Origin: Candidatus Poribacteria bacterium
Lineage (GTDB): Bacteria; Poribacteria; WGA-4E; WGA-3G
Direction: 5' to 3'
DNA length: 64,000 bases
Assembly: GCA_965214095.1 (NCBI GenBank)
Contig: OZ243938.1
Location: forward strand, 4,736,001-4,800,000
Within the stretch, counting starts at the first letter, position 1; the number at the start of each line of letters is the position of its first letter. This document shows positions 42,585-57,992 of the stretch, in pieces. The notes under the pieces were generated by a model that made no database searches, was not told where the DNA came from, and worked only from the letters and a program-made list of their open reading frames with translations. Both the position numbers and the translations under genes were made by a program.

Positions 42585-44198
42585 TTGATGTTGAAAAAAA
42601 TCGTAAATTTGTATCTGTTTCTTGTGCTTATGTTGACTGTATCTTCAGCTGTGTTTGGACACAGCGATTCCCCTACTTTGTTAGAGGATGTAAACAAGGA
42701 CGGGGTGGTAAATATTCAAGATTTAGTACTTGTCGCTGCTGCTTTTGGACAGCCGCGGGATCGCACGGCTCTACATGACCCTGATGTCAATCGCGATGGT
42801 ATTATCAACATACTTGATCTTGTTCGCGTCAGCAATCGTTTTGGCGAAACATTACCGGAGGAGCATTCAACTTATCACGCTATTCAAGAGTATATTTTTG
42901 ATAAAAGCTGCGTGAATAGTGCGTGCCATGCGGCACCGACAAATGTTGCAAGTTTGGACCTCAGCTATACGGCTTCTTATGAGGAGCTAATTGGACAAGC
43001 CCCAGAGAACCCGTCGGCATCGGATTCGGGTATGAAACTTGTTGATCCAGGCAATCCTGAAAATAGTTTCCTGTTGACGAAACTGATTACCCCTATATCA
43101 CAGGAGCATGGACAAATAATGCCCCTTAGTAGTGGTGTGCTTCACGACGGCAAAATAGATGCTATTCGGAAATGGATTGCTGCTGGTGCGCCACAGACAG
43201 GTAAAATAGAAGGGGTTGGTGATCTTGGTTTGCTACGAGACCCCGAAGAAAGATTTGTGCCACCGGCAGCACCGCTACCTGGGCAGGGGTATCAGTTGCA
43301 TTTACCGCCTTACACAATTGAACCGGGTACCGAACGCGAGGTCTTTTACGCAACACAGATCCGAGATGAAAATGGTGATCTGATAGAAGGCGATATATTC
43401 ATCAGTGGATTCGAGATATTCTACCCGACAGGTAGTCATCACTTTATCTTATACAGACTCACCGATGCAGCAATAGAAGAAGACATTCTGCAAGCGGGTG
43501 TCACGCCGGGAATAGGCGTTGACCCGAACCACGTTTTTCGTGAACTGGATCCAGAGGATCCGCAAGCATTTGGAAATATAGGGATTCACCGGTTCTTTGT
43601 TGGCGGGACACAATCTAAGGATCTCTCCTTTGAGTTTCCTGAAGGTGTTGCGCTGCGTCTCCCTGGTGACACGCTGTTCGACTTAAACTCTCACTACATC
43701 AACTTATTAGGCACAGAAACACTCGTCGGTGAGGTTTATATAAATATTTACACGGTTCCGCCTGAAGAAGTCAAGCATGAGGCGAAAGAGATTTTCGTTT
43801 CCAATACGAATCTTAACATTCCACCGGGTCTCACCCGTATAGCAAAAATGGACTGGTATGTTGAAGATGAACTTGATCGACGCGGTGTCCCTTCCGATGC
43901 CATCATGAATATAATGACACTGTCATCTCACATGCATAGACATGGTGAGTTGTTTGAAATTACGCGGATGTCAACGAATGAATTGCTTCACAGGAGTATC
44001 GTCTATGATAACGCACCGATCACGTTCTATAACCCACCGCTAATGCTTGATGCGACCGATGGACTAAGTTTTCAGTGCACCCATAACAACTACGATCGCG
44101 ATGTGTCGATTGAGTTCGGATTTACATCTGAGGACGAGATGTGTATAATCGTCGGGTATTATTATCTTTCAACGGAAGCGGAGATGACCGAAGACTGA
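42585..44198 (+). CDS. Secreted dockerin-like + cytochrome-like + PHM/DBH-type copper monooxygenase
   Basis: DVNKDGVVNIQDL and DVNRDGIINILDL repeats; CVNSACH; SHHFIL, SHY, SHMHRHG and EDEMC motifs. Confidence 0.75.
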   Translation: MMLKKIVNLYLFLVLMLTVSSAVFGHSDSPTLLEDVNKDGVVNIQDLVLVAAAFGQPRDRTALHDPDVNRDGIINILDLVRVSNRFGETLPEEHSTYHAIQEYIFDKSCVNSACHAAPTNVASLDLSYTASYEELIGQAPENPSASDSGMKLVDPGNPENSFLLTKLITPISQEHGQIMPLSSGVLHDGKIDAIRKWIAAGAPQTGKIEGVGDLGLLRDPEERFVPPAAPLPGQGYQLHLPPYTIEPGTEREVFYATQIRDENGDLIEGDIFISGFEIFYPTGSHHFILYRLTDAAIEEDILQAGVTPGIGVDPNHVFRELDPEDPQAFGNIGIHRFFVGGTQSKDLSFEFPEGVALRLPGDTLFDLNSHYINLLGTETLVGEVYINIYTVPPEEVKHEAKEIFVSNTNLNIPPGLTRIAKMDWYVEDELDRRGVPSDAIMNIMTLSSHMHRHGELFEITRMSTNELLHRSIVYDNAPITFYNPPLMLDATDGLSFQCTHNNYDRDVSIEFGFTSEDEMCIIVGYYYLSTEAEMTED

Positions 44199-47760: not shown

Positions 47761-50700
47761 TCATACAAGGGATGGTAAAATGTCGTCTATTGTATCCATT
47801 ATTCGTATGGTTTCGGCTATGGCGACGAGTATTTTGCGGTATTGGTTGAGGTCGTCTGTGGTTAAGCGTCTGTCCTTCCTGTCTTTTAGCCACTTATGGC
47901 AGACTTGATATGCTCCGATCTCATATTCCCAGACTTCTTGGGGGATATCGGCGAAGTGTTGGGTGGTGTTTATCCAGACTTTGTTATCGATATAGCGGAC
48001 GCGTTCTACTATGCCATCGCCTTCTCCTTCAAAGCGATGGGTGGGTTGTGGGACGTTTTTCAGGAGGTGTAGGTCAATTAGTTCTTGTCCTAACTCTGCG
48101 AGGGTGTGGAAGTGGTCTGTGTTCTGTGGTAATGGGATGCGGGGGAAGTCGTATCGGAGGAATTCGTAGTATCTGTTGCGATAGGTGGGACTGTATAGCA
48201 CGGCGTAGATGTAGGCGAGGATTTGTTCGGGTGTGATGCCGTCTGGGAGTCGGTGGGGGTCGGTTTGAGGGAGTCCTAACGACTCTGCAAGTGCAGTGAG
48301 GTATTCGAGTTTAAAGTTGAGTTTGATTCCTGTTTCCAGTAAACCATCGGGCTCGGGGTATAGGTAGAGTGGAAATAGATGTGTAGCTTCACTTCCTCTA
48401 TTTGAAACATAACTCTTTTCAGTTATGTTTTCTGTTATCAAAACATGGTTCCATGCAGCACTTGTAACAATTCTACACACAGAGAGCACTATATTTTCAA
48501 CGTCATGCAAATGTCGTATAATACTATAGTTTGGACGAGAATGAAAACCTGTTTGTCCAGTATAATATGTCCATCGTATGTCAAATGGACGGTAGCGAAT
48601 TGCCGTTAAGTGCTTTTCAACATCTGGGTTATTGCGGAGATCTGTTTGGGCGCGAGGTATTTGCCAATGATGCGTATCCTTTCCCAAGTTAAACCTTTCA
48701 CGGGCTTCCTCAGGATCAAGTGATACAAAGTCAGTTACCGTTTGCTTTACATCTTCAGCTGTCCAATGAATTGTCAATTTATCCCGTCCTGTAGCCATCC
48801 CTACTGACTCCGTATGAAAGATGTCACTTATTCTCCAACCTTTTGTATATTGAACTTGGAAATCTGTTTCATGTATGACAAACAAATAATAAGGTGATTC
48901 AGGGAGGATCTCAGACCAGTTTGTAGTCCGAACATTAGTTTCTGAGAGTTCGTGGTATTTTTCTTGACGTGTTCCCCACACATCCTCATATAAAACGTTT
49001 GCTTGTGTTCGGTTATCCCTTTCTTTAACACACAATAAAATACAAACACCTTGTGAAATGTCAAACACATTTTCGTTTTTCTCACCATCAGGGACTCTTT
49101 CTTGTATTCTTATGCTTCCGTGTAAATTGAGTATGTAGATTGAGTTGAAACTATCTAACAAACTTTTCCGCATCCCGCGAAAGCCAGGTCCGTTAAGGAA
49201 ACTATTGTTCACAATATAGCCAATAACACCTTCACCGTTTTCATCAATTCGCCACTGCGCCCACCGTGTAAATTTGACATAATCTGATTGGAGCATTTTC
49301 AAGTTTCTATCATTGAGTCGTTCCCCATTTATCTGTTTGTAATCCTCAATAAGTCTACCAATGAAAGTTAAATCGCCATTACTATCACGACTTGGGTTAG
49401 CGGAATCTTCAGGATATGGAGGATTGCCGATGATGGCGAGGATGGGTTCGTCGCGTTTTACGGAGAGGGCAGCGTTCACCTCGTCTGATATAAACGCTGC
49501 AAATGGGATGGATTCCACCATCTCTGCGGGTTGTTCCAATGTGTTGGTGAGATAGATGCGCAGGTTTTCATTGGATTGCCAACCTTGTGTCTGTAGGAAT
49601 AGACTCAACTTGAGATGCGCGATGGTATATGGGGCAACGAGCAATTCAAATCCGATGATGCGATTGACTAACTTTTCATTGACATATTGATGCCAAGTGC
49701 CTGTGCCGTCTGTCGTTGAGACATAATCACGTATGTTGTTAAGCACAGAGAGTAGGAATCCACCTGTTCCGGTTGCGGGGTCAAGGATGAGCGTGTTTTC
49801 ATCTGCGAGTCCGCTGGGTTTGTTGAGTTCTGTTTTGAGCAGGCTATCCACAGATCGCACGATGTAGGATATAACCTGTGGCGGTGTGTAGTAGACACCC
49901 CGATCAATGCGCCTTTGCGGGTCGTATTGAGCGAGGAAGGTTTCGTAGAAGTGGATCACCGGGTCTTCAAGGTGGTTTCTGGGTGTGAAAGCAGTGCGGA
50001 GCATCTCGGTCGGGACGTTCTGGAGTAGCGTTACGATGTCGTCAAGGATGTATGTGACGTTCTGTTCGGATGACATGCCTGCAACGTGACGGAAAAGTCG
50101 TTTCAGAAACCGATTGGATTGTGGTAGCGATTCGGTTGCGGTGAGTCGTGAGAAATGGGTAGCGTTTGGGAGTGTGCATCGTGCGGCGAACAATCCGTAA
50201 GAGAGCGTTTGTGCATACATATCCGAGAAGTCGGCTTTTGTGAGTGTAAGAAGGAGCGTTTCTCTGAATGCTTCGTATATGCCGAAGGTTTCGGTGGTCT
50301 CATCGGTGAGTGTGGTTGCTATCTGTGTTTTGAGTTCGCGTGTGCGTCTTGCGAGGTATCCTGCGAGTGCTTCTGGTGTGCCGATTTGGATGGCGTGATC
50401 CAGAAATCGTTGTATGAGTGCCCTGAGATCGTCTGTGTTGTCGGTAATTCGTGCGGTGTTGATTCGTTGTCCGTCTTTATACAACTCAAAATCTATGAAG
50501 TTGGTGAGGATGAAGTTGTCAAGGTTTTCCTTGAATCTGTCGTTTTGCTCTTCTGCGTGTCCTGTGAGATTGTCAAGGTCTGTGTCGGGTGCTTCTGCTT
50601 CAATGTATCCGATGGGTAGCAGACCGTCTTTGGCGATGATGTCGGGTCGTCCGATTTCGCTTATGTTTCTGGGTTCCAGTGTGTATCGGACGTTGGGGTT

Positions 50701-50838
50701 GTTGAGGCATTCAGCGGTGACGTTTTCAAGGAGTGTTTTTAGGTCTGGATGGAGTGATAGTTCTGCGGTGGCTTCGTCTGTGGCGCGGGTTTGGTCTATC
50801 TGTTGTAGGTAGTGGTTGCAGTGTGATTGGAATGGCAT
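47761..50838 (-). CDS. Single-polypeptide restriction-modification enzyme (type ISP/IIG-like, N6-adenine MTase)
   Basis: GVYYTP, ILDPATGTGGF and GNPPY motifs; C-terminal TRD with YRPFD, DFPRIP and IGAYQVCHKWLKDR; N-terminal PD..IEAE. Confidence 0.88.
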   Translation of the reverse strand: MPFQSHCNHYLQQIDQTRATDEATAELSLHPDLKTLLENVTAECLNNPNVRYTLEPRNISEIGRPDIIAKDGLLPIGYIEAEAPDTDLDNLTGHAEEQNDRFKENLDNFILTNFIDFELYKDGQRINTARITDNTDDLRALIQRFLDHAIQIGTPEALAGYLARRTRELKTQIATTLTDETTETFGIYEAFRETLLLTLTKADFSDMYAQTLSYGLFAARCTLPNATHFSRLTATESLPQSNRFLKRLFRHVAGMSSEQNVTYILDDIVTLLQNVPTEMLRTAFTPRNHLEDPVIHFYETFLAQYDPQRRIDRGVYYTPPQVISYIVRSVDSLLKTELNKPSGLADENTLILDPATGTGGFLLSVLNNIRDYVSTTDGTGTWHQYVNEKLVNRIIGFELLVAPYTIAHLKLSLFLQTQGWQSNENLRIYLTNTLEQPAEMVESIPFAAFISDEVNAALSVKRDEPILAIIGNPPYPEDSANPSRDSNGDLTFIGRLIEDYKQINGERLNDRNLKMLQSDYVKFTRWAQWRIDENGEGVIGYIVNNSFLNGPGFRGMRKSLLDSFNSIYILNLHGSIRIQERVPDGEKNENVFDISQGVCILLCVKERDNRTQANVLYEDVWGTRQEKYHELSETNVRTTNWSEILPESPYYLFVIHETDFQVQYTKGWRISDIFHTESVGMATGRDKLTIHWTAEDVKQTVTDFVSLDPEEARERFNLGKDTHHWQIPRAQTDLRNNPDVEKHLTAIRYRPFDIRWTYYTGQTGFHSRPNYSIIRHLHDVENIVLSVCRIVTSAAWNHVLITENITEKSYVSNRGSEATHLFPLYLYPEPDGLLETGIKLNFKLEYLTALAESLGLPQTDPHRLPDGITPEQILAYIYAVLYSPTYRNRYYEFLRYDFPRIPLPQNTDHFHTLAELGQELIDLHLLKNVPQPTHRFEGEGDGIVERVRYIDNKVWINTTQHFADIPQEVWEYEIGAYQVCHKWLKDRKDRRLTTDDLNQYRKILVAIAETIRIMDTIDDILPSLV

Positions 50839-51205: not shown

Positions 51206-51607
51206 TTAGGATTGCATTATTTCTAGCGTGTCGGTTTTGTGGTCTGTATCTCGGTGGTCTTCGGTTAGTGTTGGTGCTTTTTGATAGTCTGATTCAATAC
51301 CGTCTAATGGGACTATTGATAGACGACATCCAATTGCTTTGAGGACGGTTGTTAGCGTGTCGATGTGTAGGGATTCTTTGTTTGTTAGGACATCGGAAAG
51401 GATTTGTGGGTCAATGTCTGTTTGCTTTGCGACTTCGGCGATTCCACCCTTCGCTTCAATGATACTTTCTAAGGAAATCTGAATGATGGCGGCATTCCCA
51501 TGGCTTTCGTATTCTTCCATTACGGCAGAAAGGAAACTGCTCATATCTTCCTCTTCGGCAAGTTGTTCAATCAGGAACTTGTCCCAAGTTCCAAGTTTTT
51601 TAGTCAT
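51206..51607 (-). CDS. Addiction-module antitoxin (HI1420-like HTH)
   Basis: AKGGIAEVAKQT...TLTTVLKAIGCRL; overlaps the toxin stop. Confidence 0.78.
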   Translation of the reverse strand: MTKKLGTWDKFLIEQLAEEEDMSSFLSAVMEEYESHGNAAIIQISLESIIEAKGGIAEVAKQTDIDPQILSDVLTNKESLHIDTLTTVLKAIGCRLSIVPLDGIESDYQKAPTLTEDHRDTDHKTDTLEIMQS

Positions 51608-51941
51608 TTATCCTCTCCTTGTATTCTGTCCAATAGTTTTTTGCACGTTCAATATCTCTATTCTGTGAAGATTTGCCTCCACCACAAAGCAGGAGAACGA
51701 TTGTTTGGTCAACTTGAGCATAATAGACACGATAACCTGTACCAACATCAATCTTTAACTCCCAAACGCCATCACCAACAAATTTATGTTCACCAAGGTT
51801 GCCAAGCTTAACAGATTGTAGTCGTGCTCGAATCCGTTCTTTTGCTCTTGTATCTCGAATTGAATTGAACCATTCGGTGAAAGGATCATTTCCGTTTGGA
51901 AGTTGATAAGTATCAATTGTCCGTGGTTGGGCATCTCGCAT
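51600..51941 (-). CDS. RelE/HigB-like addiction-module toxin (HI1419-like)
   Basis: GNLGEHKFVGDGVWELKIDVGTGYRVYY..LLLCGGGKSSQ. Confidence 0.9.
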   Translation of the reverse strand: MRDAQPRTIDTYQLPNGNDPFTEWFNSIRDTRAKERIRARLQSVKLGNLGEHKFVGDGVWELKIDVGTGYRVYYAQVDQTIVLLLCGGGKSSQNRDIERAKNYWTEYKERIND

Positions 51942-54068: not shown

Positions 54069-54932
54069 GTGGATAATTTATTTGATCAATTCTATACGAA
54101 ACCTGAAGTCGCAGCTAATTGTTGGGAACACTTCCTTGAAGAACTTTCATCAGTAAACCGTTCTGTCAATGACATATTTTTTATTGAACCATCTGCAGGA
54201 ACTGGGACATTTTTTAAGCTCTTGCCTCCTCAGCAGCGATTGGGTATAGACATCAACCCAAAATGTATAGATGTAAATCAGCAAGACTTCTTTTCCATAA
54301 TTGATCTACCTAATTCTCCAGAAAACACTGCAATTATTGGGAATCCGCCATTCGGGAAACGTGGAAAGATGGCAATTGCTTTTTTCAATCATGCTGCTGT
54401 TTTAGCAGATATAGTTGCGTTTATCGTTCCTGTCAACTTTAGGAAATATATCGTGCATAAGCAACTTGATGAAAGTATGCGATTTATTAGTAGATTAGGA
54501 CTCCAAAGAGATGCTTTCTACCTTGATTCAGGTAAATCTTATTCTGTAAATACAGAATTTCAGATTTGGACACGTTTACCAAGCAACCATCAAGACATGA
54601 GACAATATACCTCTTTACCTATCAGGCATGATGATTTTCAGTTATGGCAATATAACAATACAGTTGATGCTCAAAAAGTATTTCAAAATAAGTTTGATTT
54701 CGCTGTTCCCTGTCAAGGTTGGCAAGATTATTCACGCAAAGAGACAGATGAGAAAAAATGTGAACGAAATAAACAGTGGATACTGATTAAAGCCAACAGT
54801 AGTGAAATATTATCTCGGTTAAAACAACTTGACTATGCTGGTTTAGCTAATGAATGTGGTACCGCAGTTCCAGGTTTTCGCAAAGGTGATCTTGTGAAAG
54901 AATATACAAAGCATTTTGATTATCAGTCTTAA
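54069..54932 (+). CDS. Orphan SAM-dependent amino-methyltransferase, probably DNA N6-adenine
   Basis: DQFYT, FIEPSAGTG and GNPPF motifs; promoter TTGACA-17-TAATAT at 54013-54041. Confidence 0.75.
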   Translation: MDNLFDQFYTKPEVAANCWEHFLEELSSVNRSVNDIFFIEPSAGTGTFFKLLPPQQRLGIDINPKCIDVNQQDFFSIIDLPNSPENTAIIGNPPFGKRGKMAIAFFNHAAVLADIVAFIVPVNFRKYIVHKQLDESMRFISRLGLQRDAFYLDSGKSYSVNTEFQIWTRLPSNHQDMRQYTSLPIRHDDFQLWQYNNTVDAQKVFQNKFDFAVPCQGWQDYSRKETDEKKCERNKQWILIKANSSEILSRLKQLDYAGLANECGTAVPGFRKGDLVKEYTKHFDYQS

Positions 54933-56757: not shown

Positions 56758-56818
56758 ACATAAGAATTACATTGACATAAGAATTACATTGACATAAGAA
56801 GAATTAAAATGTTAATAT
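56758..56818 (+). promoter_or_regulatory. Promoter with a 17-bp tandem repeat carrying duplicated TTGACA
   Basis: ACATAAGAATTACATTG x2.5; TTGACA at 56772 and 56789; TGnTAATAT at 56810-56818. Confidence 0.6.
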
Positions 56819-56936
56819 TTAGACAAAATAAGTCTGAATCTGGTCACAACACGTTGTCAACAATAGAGGTTGATGTTAACACATATTCAATATACATAGC
56901 AAAAAATACAATCAGATTGTATTAAAGGGAACTAAA

Positions 56937-57992
56937 ATGAAACATCTGCTTTTGATGATATTATCTATCCAATTCATATTTCTACCCCTCGGTTTTGCAC
57001 AAGAGAGCTGAGGCGCGTGAAGTAATCCCACTATCCCTCAGGGAGGTGGAAGTGAAGTTAGTTTAACTTCAGAGAATAAGAGATTTCAAATTAGTCTTGG
57101 TACACGGACATTCAACGCCGAGGGTGGACATATTGAATACAATGGATTGTCTCAGGTTGGCAGCCTTCCTGAACAAGTTCCAGAACATAGACATGAAGTT
57201 AAGTTGAACGTTGTTCGGTTTGATATTGGGTTTAAATATCAAATCAGTAGACAGTTTCAGTTGGACGCAATGTTGCCTTATGAAATAAAAGATCAAGATG
57301 CAAATGTTGGTGGACTTGATAAAATAGATAATGAAGAGATGAGAAGAAAAATCTTACTCTATCAAGAAATCCATCATCGCGACGAAACATATCGCGGTTT
57401 TTCAGATATGGATCTTTTATTGGGTTATCAAAGACATGGGATCTTTCTGAATCATGACATGCTATCAGCAAAATTCGGCACAACAATCCCATTGGGAAAA
57501 ATTGAAGATAATCCGTGGACACTTGGAGAAATGGGGATGGAGCATCTCCATATTCAATTCGGTACTGGCACGTTTAATCCAATTGCAGATTTGCGCTACA
57601 GTTTTCCGATACTTAGTGGGTTGAGAGCGAATGCAAGTATCCGTGGTAAGTATCCTTTCTATGAGAATAGGAAAGAATATCTCGGTTCAAAGGACATTAC
57701 CTATACTGCAGGTCTGAATTATCGGGCTGCTGATTGGCTGTCGTTTCAGACAAGTTATCTTGGATTATATCAATCCTACGCGCATTGGGCAGGAGAAATA
57801 GATATCAATACGGGGCTGCGGTTTAGTATGGTATCATTCGGAACATCTATAGCCACTCCATACAATGTTCCTCTTTCTATAACGTTTATGCTGCCAATTC
57901 AACAGGAAACTCTATATGATGATAGTGCATCTGGGAACGATGCATTCAAGTTGGGATCGTTAGTATCCGTTAGGGCTTTGTATTCCTTTTGA
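56937..57992 (+). CDS. Candidate UxxU selenoprotein; outer-membrane beta-barrel (MetA-pathway/transporter-like)
   Basis: ATG at 56937 with AAGGGA RBS; signal peptide MKHLLLMILSIQFIFLPLGFA; QES-U-G-A-U (TGA at 57009 and 57018); otherwise stop-free and in frame with ORF 57147-57992; ends ALYSF. Confidence 0.75.
57028..57049 (+). other. Candidate bacterial SECIS hairpin
   Basis: CCAC-U-A-UCCC-UCA-GGGA-G-GUGG stem-loop starting 7 nt after the second UGA. Confidence 0.55.

What the first reader, a model, noticed from the sequence alone, without database searches (positions are those of the whole stretch)
56937..57992. Hidden exported UxxU double-selenocysteine outer-membrane barrel
Seen: the annotated ORF (TTG at 57147) has no signal peptide. 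The same frame continues upstream to an RBS-backed ATG at 56937 encoding a typical signal peptide. The only interruptions are two TGA codons, at positions 25 and 28 (Q-E-S-U-G-A-U-S-N-P), just after the predicted cleavage site (GFA|Q). Read through, it is a 351-aa protein with His-rich patches (EHRHE, IHHRD, EHLH) and a C-terminal Phe. Two random nonsense mutations giving exact xxC-style spacing, both UGA, are unlikely. TGG is used for Trp and TGA is a normal stop elsewhere (44196, 57990), so this is not a reassigned code. Known: UxxU diselenide motifs occur in thioredoxin-fold selenoprotein L; I recall related barrel 'transporter' families often carrying N-terminal CxxC. Inference: a selenium-based redox or metal gate (Cu, Hg, Ag) on an outer-membrane channel, a class I do not recognise as described.
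Basis: partly seen in the sequence, partly recalled or inferred. Interest (0 to 1): 0.9.

Follow-up and report, generated by a model that had tools for sequence, protein, structure and literature searches.

The report
Double-selenocysteine outer-membrane barrel protein
The gene is a real, mis-annotated protein with two selenium-containing amino acids at the tip of an outer-membrane barrel, a selenoprotein family that appears to be undescribed and probably handles metals or redox chemistry at the cell surface.

Summary
ATG 56937 opens a 351-codon frame whose only interruptions are TGA codons 25 and 28.

Both TGAs are conserved. Of the 150 relatives listed in a search of 176 genomes of the phylum, 141 carry two in-frame TGAs, 8 carry one, 1 carries three and none carries zero. 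One-TGA relatives read CxxU. Distant full-length relatives read CxxC at the same place.

The genome has selA, selB, selD and tRNA-Sec, and TGA is a normal stop there. Two hairpins follow the TGAs. They covary, sit in a stretch of depressed synonymous change, and are absent from the CxxC genes.

AlphaFold2 gives a 12-strand barrel (pLDDT 90.7) that resembles FapF and COG4313 channels. Five His are invariant across the whole family.

Function is inferred, not shown. Distant relatives are fused to thioredoxin, cupredoxin or HMA domains, or sit directly after a thioredoxin lipoprotein gene. This points to a redox-active, soft-metal-binding N-terminal hook.

No Pfam or NCBIfam model fits the barrel. 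A 2026 inventory of 119 prokaryotic selenoprotein families does not list it. I read it as a new selenoprotein family.

The parts
56789..56818 (+). Promoter-like site: TTGACA, 18-nt spacer, TAATAT, with TG before the second hexamer. It lies about 119 nt upstream of the ATG.
   Evidence: This is a consensus match only (10 of 12) and is not evidence of function.
56924..56929 (+). Purine-rich Shine-Dalgarno-like AAAGGG, 7 nt before the ATG.
   Evidence: read from the sequence.
56937..57992 (+). Full coding sequence of the selenoprotein: 351 codons plus the TGA stop, with two in-frame UGA (Sec) codons.
   Evidence: Full-length matches over query residues 1-351 with 2 TGAs inside occur in relatives.
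56937..56999 (+). Signal peptide, codons 1-21. The predicted cleavage is GFA|Q, so Gln22 would be the mature N-terminus.
   Evidence: Read from the sequence. The hydrophobic N-terminus is conserved in relatives. No predictor was run.
57009..57011 (+). UGA codon 25, the first Sec of UxxU.
   Evidence: In CxxU relatives this codon is TGC or TGT.
57018..57020 (+). UGA codon 28, the second Sec of UxxU.
   Evidence: It is TGA in all 57 relatives read from this phylum and Cys in distant relatives.
57028..57049 (+). Hairpin 1. The outer helix pairs 57028-57032 with 57045-57049. The inner helix pairs 57034-57037 with 57041-57044. The loop is 57038-57040. It starts 7 nt after UGA2.
   Evidence: Searches give the MFE and centroid folds. 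A hairpin at this place covaries across relatives (pair 24-49 is CG in 26 and UA in 21 sequences; pair 28-42 is AU in 24 and GC in 16). The register in the window's own subgroup differs from the consensus.
57053..57071 (+). Hairpin 2. Eight pairs join 57053-57060 with 57064-57071, with a GUU loop at 57061-57063. It is the candidate SelB-binding apex and starts 32 nt after UGA2.
   Evidence: 98.7% of cells are paired and 5 of 7 pairs show double changes (pair 60-66 is UA in 30 and CG in 25 sequences). The loop G is invariant and the next U is at least 90% conserved. Codon 42 is AGT in 47 of 47 sequences and codon 44 is ACT in 43 of 44.
57000..57083 (+). Mature N-terminal tail, residues 22-49: QESUGAUSNPxIP plus a linker. 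U25, U28, N30 and P31 are invariant across the family.
   Evidence: AlphaFold2 confidence for this tail is only 62-70.
57084..57989 (+). 12-strand beta-barrel, residues 50-351, ending in Phe.
   Evidence: AlphaFold2. Foldseek matches FapF and COG4313.
57129..57551 (+). Span holding the conserved His codons. H65 (57129), H86 (57192), H146-H147 (57372-57377) and H203/H205 (57543, 57549) are invariant across the whole family, along with R148 and D157. H84 (57186) is invariant within this phylum only.
   Evidence: Alignments A2, A3, A6 and A7.
57147..57992 (+). The truncated table-11 ORF (TTG start, 281 aa), which is how gene callers see this gene.
   Evidence: It is identical to database protein P0002.

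Best explanation
SHOWN BY COMPUTATION. The region 56937-57992 is one gene for an exported protein of 351 residues in which UGA codons 25 and 28 stand where relatives have Cys. The mature protein begins QES-U-G-A-U-SNP. After a short linker it forms a 12-strand outer-membrane beta-barrel of the FapF/COG4313 fold class. The pair of UGAs is followed by two conserved, covarying hairpins that exist only in the UGA-bearing members of the family.

INFERRED, DECODING. SelB with Sec-tRNA reads both UGAs, directed by this two-hairpin element. Hairpin 2, with its invariant G-U loop, is the likeliest SelB-binding apex. Hairpin 1 may act as a spacer or pausing element, or as a second binding site.

INFERRED, FUNCTION (about even odds). 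The UxxU is the selenium version of a family-wide CxxC hook at the extreme N-terminus.
- As in COG4313 channels, the N-terminal segment probably reaches into the barrel from the periplasmic side.
- There the two selenols, together with the invariant His cluster (H65, H86, H146/147, H203/205), would bind or relay a soft metal of Cu(I) type, or act as a redox gate.
- In CxxC relatives a dedicated thioredoxin, either a lipoprotein encoded next door or a fused domain, would keep the pair reduced.
- The lineage of the window lacks that partner and uses Sec instead.
For: Real Sec codons:
- 141 of 150 listed matches have 2 TGAs, 8 have 1, 1 has 3 and none has 0, over 140 of 176 genomes.
- The pair persists down to 36% identity in three further taxonomic families of the order.
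- The first U is Cys (TGC or TGT) in 6 of the 57 relatives I read. The second is always TGA.
- 12 of 14 fetched distant full-length proteins have CxxC there. The other 2 show W, i.e. TGA translated by a pipeline.
- 39 of 39 barrel ORFs from Myxococcota and Fibrobacteria that met my motif, strand and length filter (42 ORFs in the cluster) read C-x-x-C-x-N-P straight after an Ala or Gly at position -1.

Decoding machinery:
- selB, selA, selD (itself with 1 TGA) and tRNA-Sec are present.
- selB scores above its cut-off in 167 of 176 genomes of the phylum.
- TGA ends 259 of 1367 long open frames.

RNA element:
- 90.7% of 782 cells are paired, against 84.9% in shuffles and 26-52% when partners are slid.
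- 8 of 14 pairs show double changes, and 0 of 500 shuffles reach the observed values.
- RNAalifold finds hairpin 2 on its own.
- Synonymous entropy is 0.47 in codons 26-47 against 0.77 elsewhere, p = 5e-5.
- 33 CxxC genes give 0 consensus pairs in the same region.

Fold:
- AlphaFold2 gives pLDDT 90.7 and pTM 0.87.
- Foldseek matches FapF at E = 3e-12 and COG4313 at E = 3e-10.
- The ESM Atlas places a CxxC relative among PF13557 clusters.
- The COG4313 crystal structure has its N-terminal ~14 residues inside the lumen (PMC4493636, passages seen).

Function:
- Distant relatives are fused to HMA (P0143), to thioredoxin (P0194, P0232, P0263), and to thioredoxin plus cupredoxin (P0206, P0240), with His-rich linkers.
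- In 27 of 47 loci the same-strand upstream gene belongs to one cluster. All 6 members scanned carry a thioredoxin domain, and the printed members show a lipobox-like N-terminus.
Against: - No selenium incorporation, protein or transcript has been observed directly. Contigs from RNA libraries cover the TGA region, but they do not prove transcription.
- The RNA geometry is not the textbook one. The G-U loop of hairpin 2 lies about 40 nt after UGA2 and about 49 nt after UGA1. Hairpin 1 starts only 5-7 nt after UGA2. The shape of hairpin 1 varies between subgroups. No Rfam family matches. How one element serves two UGAs 9 nt apart is unknown.
- The N-terminal tail is modelled with only moderate confidence (62-70). 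I could not read model coordinates, so contact between the Sec pair and the His cluster is untested.
- The functional evidence comes from relatives at roughly 20-35% identity in other phyla.
- In this phylum the neighbours are ordinary metabolic genes: aldo/keto reductase, GFO/IDH/MocA oxidoreductase, cupin, hydantoinase and amidohydrolase.
- The thioredoxin lipoprotein's Cys/His module has no match in this genome.
- COG4313 relatives are thought to carry hydrophobic compounds, not metals (PMC4493636).
Confidence: 0.65

Rival explanations
1. It is a genuine UxxU selenoprotein barrel, but it works like other COG4313/FadL-type channels for hydrophobic small molecules. The Sec/Cys pair would only staple or regulate the N-terminal plug through a diselenide or disulfide and would bind no metal.
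For: - The fold and the ESM look-alikes are PF13557/COG4313.
- COG4313 has an N-terminal plug and is thought to carry hydrophobic substrates (PMC4493636).
- A thioredoxin partner fits a redox-switched plug as well as it fits a metal site.
Against: - Five invariant His plus Asp and Arg suggest a polar, metal-type site rather than a hydrophobic path.
- HMA and cupredoxin fusions and His-rich linkers occur in relatives.
- The Pfam PF13557 model scores below its threshold (12.6 bits against 22).
Confidence: 0.2
2. It is a genuine selenoprotein, but the barrel is an outer-membrane enzyme. A His-bound metal centre would use the Sec pair as a redox relay, for example as a reductase acting on an extracellular or periplasmic substrate, rather than forming a channel or gate.
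For: - Many residues are invariant: H, D, R, E, and the HxHxQFGTGT motif.
- Thioredoxin and cupredoxin, an electron-transfer fold, are fused in relatives.
Against: - No similarity to any known enzyme.
- No substrate clue from the neighbours.
Confidence: 0.1
3. The TGAs are stops. The real gene is the 281-aa ORF from TTG 57147, or the gene is a pseudogene, and the upstream frame is a conserved leader or a coincidence.
For: Gene callers annotate it this way here and in every relative returned in the first listing.
Against: - The frame, the signal peptide and the TGA pair are conserved in 150 of 150 listed matches.
- The short ORF lacks a signal peptide, strand 1 and the invariant H65.
- Cys occupies the same positions in relatives.
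- A 12-strand barrel cannot form without strand 1.
Confidence: 0.03
4. The UGAs are read as another amino acid, such as Trp or Gly, through a reassigned code or near-cognate read-through, and not as Sec.
For: Two database entries translate these TGAs as W (P0170, P0182), presumably through pipelines that use another code.
Against: - TGA ends 259 of 1367 long frames in this genome.
- The positions alternate with Cys, never with Trp or Gly codons, in the relatives read.
- The complete Sec machinery is present.
- Hairpins specific to the UGA-bearing genes follow the codons.
Confidence: 0.02

Closest known systems
COG4313 / Pfam PF13557 (Phenol_MetA_deg) outer-membrane channels, e.g. Pput2725 (PDB 4rl8)
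   Same: Both are 12-strand barrels. In the crystal structure an N-terminal segment before strand 1 occupies the lumen. Foldseek gives E about 3e-10 and TM 0.53-0.69. The ESM Atlas puts a CxxC relative among PF13557 clusters.
   Different: The Pfam model scores below its threshold (12.6 bits against 22). The paper's text has 0 occurrences of 'cysteine', and I did not check that family's sequences for a CxxC/UxxU-NP tip or a His cluster. The presumed substrates of COG4313 are hydrophobic compounds.
FapF amyloid secretion channel (PDB 5o65, 5o67)
   Same: It is the best structural match: a 12-strand barrel with E about 1e-12 and TM 0.54-0.74.
   Different: Sequence identity is 11-12%. The neighbours I annotated with Pfam include no Fap proteins. 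FapF's N-terminal coiled coil and its trimer (recalled) were not tested.
NF041115 'UxxU_metal_bind' HMA-type metal-binding (seleno)protein
   Same: A UxxU pair stands where the family has a metal-binding CxxC (review table). The HMA domain fused to relative P0143 hits this model weakly.
   Different: It is a small soluble HMA fold, not a barrel. It gives no hit to the window's protein.
Predicted outer-membrane selenoproteins: GSU2204 family (MtrB/PioB barrel, NF041027) and TonB-dependent receptor of the FCYXU motif type (NF049945)
   Same: Both are outer-membrane beta-barrels predicted to contain Sec (review PMC13188914, Table 1).
   Different: They are different barrel families with one Sec each. 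The NCBIfam scan of the window's protein found no family at all.
Selenoprotein L
   Same: The UxxU motif.
   Different: Selenoprotein L is a eukaryotic thioredoxin-fold protein. Here there is no thioredoxin fold.

Membership tests
Bacterial selenoprotein genes (UGA decoded as Sec) | In-frame UGA conserved among orthologues | tested here: met
   141 of 150 listed matches have 2 TGAs, 8 have 1, 1 has 3 and none has 0. extend this to three further taxonomic families of the order.
Bacterial selenoprotein genes (UGA decoded as Sec) | Homologues carry Cys at the Sec position | tested here: met
   CxxU occurs in 6 of the 57 relatives read. CxxC occurs in 12 of 14 fetched distant proteins and in 39 of 39 filtered barrel ORFs.
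Bacterial selenoprotein genes (UGA decoded as Sec) | SECIS stem-loop just downstream of the UGA | tested here: inconclusive
   Two covarying hairpins are specific to the UGA-bearing genes. Their spacing differs from the classical model as I recall it, there is no Rfam hit, and SelB binding is untested.
Bacterial selenoprotein genes (UGA decoded as Sec) | selA, selB, selD and tRNA-Sec in the genome | tested here: met
Bacterial selenoprotein genes (UGA decoded as Sec) | Selenium found in the protein | not testable with these tools
   This needs mass spectrometry or 75Se labelling.
COG4313 / PF13557 channels | Pfam model above its gathering score | tested here: not met
   12.6 bits against a cut-off of 22. 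Distant CxxC relatives also give no Pfam hit on the barrel.
COG4313 / PF13557 channels | 12-strand barrel | tested here: met
   AlphaFold2 and Foldseek against 4rl8.
COG4313 / PF13557 channels | N-terminal segment inside the lumen | tested here: inconclusive
   The tail has pLDDT 62-70. Model coordinates are not readable with these tools.
FapF | Fap operon context | tested here: not met
   The neighbours annotated with Pfam (5 conserved neighbours of the own-genome paralogue, 5 neighbours in the window, and 6 upstream genes in Myxococcota loci) are metabolic enzymes or thioredoxin proteins. No Fap family was searched for directly.
NF041115 UxxU HMA metal-binding selenoprotein | HMA fold or model hit | tested here: not met
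   no NCBIfam family at E up to 1.

The most novel reading that the evidence does not exclude
This would be a previously unrecognised class of outer-membrane protein. A diselenol (or dithiol) hook at the very N-terminus plugs into a His-lined 12-strand barrel and forms a Se2/His metal or redox centre that gates or drives passage of a soft metal across the outer membrane. In this sponge-associated lineage, selenium would have replaced both the cysteines and the need for the dedicated thioredoxin partner. Two UGAs only 9 nt apart would be decoded through a tandem two-hairpin SECIS of a kind not yet described.
Probability: 0.3. Interest if true: 0.85.

Novelty: new variant of a known kind. Interest (0 to 1): 0.72.

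Why it matters
- It appears to add a selenoprotein family that I did not find in Pfam, NCBIfam or a 2026 inventory of 119 prokaryotic selenoprotein families.
- The family is mis-annotated as a truncated 'hypothetical protein' in every database entry I saw.
- By the inventory's table, few predicted selenoproteins sit in the outer membrane and few carry a UxxU pair.
- It offers a natural test case for how bacterial SelB/SECIS decoding copes with two UGAs three codons apart.
- It exposes a wider uncharacterised barrel family with a CxxC-NP tip, an invariant His cluster, and thioredoxin, cupredoxin or HMA partners, found in Myxococcota, Fibrobacteria and other phyla. Its chemistry at the cell surface is unknown.
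- The Cys-to-Sec switch, together with loss of the thioredoxin partner, may show what selenium buys a cell in an oxidising compartment.

Tried and rejected
- Rfam scan of 56900-57200 at E up to 10: only noise, and no SECIS family.
- selD's own UGA context in this genome gave no simple hairpin from which to derive a lineage SECIS consensus.
- Covariance model R1, built from the 56 sequences, found only the two paralogues in the own genome. Two further hits at E 0.28 and 0.50 were not examined. It therefore reveals no other gene with this element.
- Neighbourhoods in the phylum (18 loci plus the window, about 17 kb each) showed conserved neighbours only within one taxonomic family. These are metabolic enzymes and are probably synteny by descent.
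- A search of the own genome with the thioredoxin-lipoprotein profile hit only generic thioredoxin domains.
- Sequence search of the PDB with the family profile found nothing relevant. The partner profile found only thioredoxins.
- Complex prediction on a Myxococcota barrel with its thioredoxin-lipoprotein neighbour gave no answer (score 0.00, controls not run). This is evidence neither for nor against binding.
- Sequencing runs: four runs of one study hold the whole stretch and may be its source. Contigs of three RNA libraries from two studies, 80-95% alike, cover the start and the TGA region (X21 record 12: 56926-57340; X22 record 20: 56988-57790; X15 record 5: 56973-57342). Among the differences shown, only 57014 C>T (synonymous) falls between the two TGAs, and 183 further differences were not shown. 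Contigs cannot prove transcription or show RNA ends.
- The tree is a quick tree only. The careful search did not finish.
- Supplementary files of papers were closed. Supplements of the selenoprotein surveys may list further candidate families that I could not see.
Full report
OBSERVATION.

- ATG is at 56937, 7 nt after AAAGGG.
- The hydrophobic N-terminus MKHLLLMILSIQFIFLPLGFA is followed by QES-TGA-GGC-GCG-TGA-AGT-AAT-CCC.
- The TGAs are at 57009-57011 and 57018-57020. No other stop occurs before TGA 57990-57992.
- The read-through product has 351 residues, contains EHRHE, IHHRD and EHLH, and ends in Phe.
- Table 11 gives only a 281-aa ORF from TTG 57147.
- A promoter-like TTGACA-18-TAATAT site lies at 56789-56818, upstream of the long frame. 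This is a consensus match only.

IS IT MORE THAN CHANCE?

Database proteins related to the gene are all truncated. One search found 444 hits, and none of the 120 listed covers more than 89% of the query. The 14 I read begin just after the TGA pair. Two of them are named Candidatus Poribacteria by NCBI, so the window is probably from that phylum. I did not verify this for the window itself.

I then searched whole genomes in six frames with stops read through.
- 140 of 176 genomes of the phylum have a match.
- By taxonomic family the counts are f1 111/111, f2 11/11, f4 7/7, f3 10/29 and the other families 0/17.
- Of the 150 matches listed, 141 carry two in-frame TGAs, 8 carry one, 1 carries three and none carries zero. 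A further 99 matches were not listed.
- The own genome holds a second copy at C1:2762443-2763525 (52% identity), also with two TGAs.
- In ten genomes of families f2-f4 the pair persists down to 36% identity.

I read 57 relatives at the DNA level.
- The motif is Q-[ED]-S-U-G-A-U-S-N-P-x-[IVL]-P with little variation.
- 51 read UxxU and 6 read CxxU, the Cys codon being TGC or TGT. The second position is always TGA.
- I chose these loci partly by hand, so the ratio is not a random sample.
- One relative (G119) has a third TGA where all others have Trp. This is probably an error or a broken copy.

DISTANT RELATIVES.

An exhaustive profile-free search found 371 proteins at E up to 0.001. Fourteen of the listed hits reach the query's N-terminus.
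- Twelve have CxxC exactly there, for example C-P-A-C-S-N-P and C-A-G-C-R-N-P.
- Two show W where the DNA must have TGA, which is a translation artefact.

A scan of one genome per species found 47 loci in Myxococcota (Polyangiaceae, Bradymonadia), Fibrobacteria and other MAGs.
- Of the 42 barrel ORFs in that cluster, 39 met my filter (motif present, + strand, at least 300 aa). All 39 read C-[AP]-[AG]-C-[RQG]-N-P.
- The residue before the first Cys is Ala in 38 and Gly in 1.
- The first Cys is therefore probably residue 1 of the mature protein. This is an inference from the AxA rule; no predictor was run.

A quick tree puts all 56 Sec-bearing rows in one clade (SH-aLRT 99) next to the CxxC forms. 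CxxU arose at least three times within that clade (quick tree, midpoint root).

SEC MACHINERY AND GENETIC CODE.

- The genome encodes selB, selA, a selD that has its own in-frame TGA, and a tRNA-Sec (anticodon tca) about 150 nt after selB.
- selB scores above its curated cut-off in 167 of 176 genomes of the phylum. The nine without an above-cut-off match include several that are under 90% complete.
- TGA ends 259 of 1367 open frames of at least 400 codons, so it is a normal stop. The TGA at 44196 is one example.

RNA ELEMENT.

Two hairpins follow the UGA pair. In the window they are 57028-57049 (two helices with a 1-nt bulge and a UCA loop) and 57053-57071 (8 bp with a GUU loop).

Results across 56 distinct sequences:
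- RNAalifold recovers hairpin 2 by itself. For example, one pair is UA in 30 sequences and CG in 25.
- For a two-hairpin structure that I specified, 90.7% of 782 cells pair. Shuffles give 84.9% and slid partners give 26-52%.
- 8 of 14 pairs show changes on both sides, and 0 of 500 shuffles reach the observed values. The sequences are related, so the shuffle count is not a probability.
- The loop G is invariant and the following U is at least 90% conserved.

Synonymous variation is depressed in this stretch.
- Normalised codon entropy is 0.47 over 14 conserved columns of codons 26-47, against 0.77 over 151 columns elsewhere (Mann-Whitney p = 5e-5).
- Ser42 is AGT in 47 of 47 sequences and Thr44 is ACT in 43 of 44.

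As a control, the same region of 33 CxxC genes gives no consensus pair at all. The peptide encoded by hairpin 2 (EVSLTSE and variants) is also missing from the CxxC proteins.

The geometry is unusual.
- Hairpin 1 starts 5-7 nt after UGA2 and 14-16 nt after UGA1.
- The G-U loop of hairpin 2 lies about 40 nt after UGA2 and about 49 nt after UGA1.
- As I recall it, the classical bacterial model places the loop roughly 16-37 nt from the UGA.
- In the CxxU paralogue group of genus g6, hairpin 1 is replaced by a 4-5-bp hairpin that starts about 15 nt after the single UGA.

Which hairpin binds SelB, and how two UGAs 9 nt apart are served, remains open.

THE PROTEIN.

- With 58 aligned relatives, AlphaFold2 models the mature chain at pLDDT 90.7 and pTM 0.87. 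The first run, with 39 sequences, gave 80.9 and 0.79.
- The model is a 12-strand barrel with helices in two long loops. The N-terminal 30 residues score 62-70, with a helical turn at the U-G-A-U.
- Foldseek finds FapF (E about 1e-12) and the COG4313 channel 4rl8 (E about 3e-10), then the FadL/TodX channels.
- Pfam gives only sub-threshold hits to Omptin, DUF3187 and PF13557. NCBIfam gives none. The barrel of the distant relatives also has no model.
- The ESM Atlas places a CxxC relative among PF13557 clusters.
- In the COG4313 crystal structure the first ~14 residues fold into the lumen from the periplasmic side (PMC4493636, passages seen). This is the precedent for placing the UxxU tip inside or at the mouth of the barrel. 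I could not test this, because model coordinates are not readable here.
- Across the whole family (58 rows, down to about 20% identity) the invariant residues are U/C25, U/C28, N30, P31, H65, H86, H146, H147, R148, D157, H203, H205 and a few Gly, Pro and Trp.

CLUES TO FUNCTION.

Around the gene and its paralogue in this phylum the neighbours are ordinary metabolic enzymes, and no partner is evident.

In the CxxC relatives the picture is different.
- In 27 of 47 loci the same-strand gene immediately upstream, often overlapping the start, falls in one cluster.
- All six members scanned carry a C-terminal thioredoxin domain.
- In the printed sequences and the 16-row alignment this partner shows a lipobox-like N-terminus, a duplicated Cys/His module (C-x-H-x-V-P-x-E-x-C-x-x-C-[HN]-P) and a thioredoxin W-C-x-x-C motif.
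- In nine more loci only an antisense ORF was called at that spot. I did not resolve these.
- In another branch the barrel itself is fused, through His-rich linkers, to thioredoxin (P0194, P0232, P0263; by eye also P0205, P0213, P0244 and P0269) or to thioredoxin plus a cupredoxin-like domain (P0206, P0240). One protein ends in an HMA domain of the CopZ/MerP type (P0143).

A fusion together with a conserved adjacent gene argues strongly that the barrel works with a periplasmic thiol-disulfide oxidoreductase. The HMA and cupredoxin domains and the His-rich linkers point to a soft metal such as copper.

The own genome has no match to the partner's Cys/His module.

My reading is that the N-terminal pair is a redox-active, metal-binding hook working with the His cluster, and that selenium has replaced cysteine in this lineage. 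I give this about even odds. A purely redox-switched plug in a channel for hydrophobic compounds, or an enzymatic barrel, remain open.

WHAT IS KNOWN.

I read Table 1 of a 2026 review (PMC13188914, section 7, parts 1 and 2).
- It lists 119 prokaryotic selenoprotein families, and none is this barrel.
- The nearest entries are a GSU2204/MtrB-PioB outer-membrane barrel and a TonB-dependent receptor, each with one Sec.
- UxxU appears in three families: Prx-like, NF041115 HMA-type metal-binding, and FmdB.

Full-text searches gave nothing on such a protein. The term sets were selenoprotein + Poribacteria; UXXU + selenoprotein + bacteria; selenocysteine / sponge symbiont / selenoproteome; and selenoprotein / outer membrane / beta-barrel / diselenide. 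For all papers other than the two named here I saw search listings only. Supplements were closed, and the scan's own earlier findings could not be consulted.

VERDICT.

The gene is a real double-Sec gene, and I am very confident of that. It appears to be a new selenoprotein family within an uncharacterised branch of 12-strand outer-membrane barrels. Its function is inferred only. The main statement as a whole, including the hook function, gets 0.65. That the two UGAs encode Sec I put at about 0.95.

Noticed in passing
own genome, G000:C1:2762443-2763525 (-), outside the window: A second copy of the barrel gene (52% identity), also with two in-frame TGAs and the same two hairpins. In family f1 it lies after an aldo/keto reductase gene and a GFO/IDH/MocA oxidoreductase gene.
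   Followed up: yes
L067 (G055:C1:6235495-6239088): A CxxU copy and a UxxU copy of the gene lie in tandem about 1.5 kb apart in one genome.
   Followed up: partly
L055 (G119:C5:4400-5467): One relative has a third in-frame TGA where all others have a conserved Trp (MMRWFD). It is probably a sequencing error or a broken copy rather than a third Sec.
   Followed up: partly
L085-L127, gene just upstream of the CxxC barrels: A lipoprotein with a duplicated Cys/His module (C-x-H-x-VP-x-E-x-C-x-x-C-[HN]-P), which has no Pfam or NCBIfam model, followed by a thioredoxin domain. It may be an undescribed metal-binding module.
   Followed up: partly
proteins P0170 and P0182 (database entries): Public gene calls translate the TGAs of this family as Trp, presumably because a pipeline applied another genetic code to these contigs.
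   Followed up: no
own genome, C1:1272212-1273138, C1:4987445-4989340 and C1:4989496-4989589: selD is itself a selenoprotein (one in-frame TGA, in the context K-C-A-G-U-A-S-K). The tRNA-Sec gene sits about 150 nt after selB.
   Followed up: partly
own genome, contig C2 (32,066 bases): GC content is 64%, against 41% for the main contig. It may be foreign DNA or a binning contaminant.
   Followed up: no
window 47761-50838 (-) and 54069-54932 (+): A 1025-aa ORF contains GNPPY and a 287-aa ORF contains GNPPF. From memory these look like N6-adenine DNA methyltransferase motifs, possibly parts of restriction-modification systems. I did not search them.
   Followed up: no
window 51206-51941 (-): Two small overlapping ORFs of 113 and 133 aa have the layout of a toxin-antitoxin pair. 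I did not search them.
   Followed up: no
window 56982-57028: In contigs of sponge and coral metagenome and metatranscriptome runs, several different contigs pile up on this short stretch alone. This shows that the nucleotide sequence around the UGA pair is shared by many paralogues and species.
   Followed up: partly
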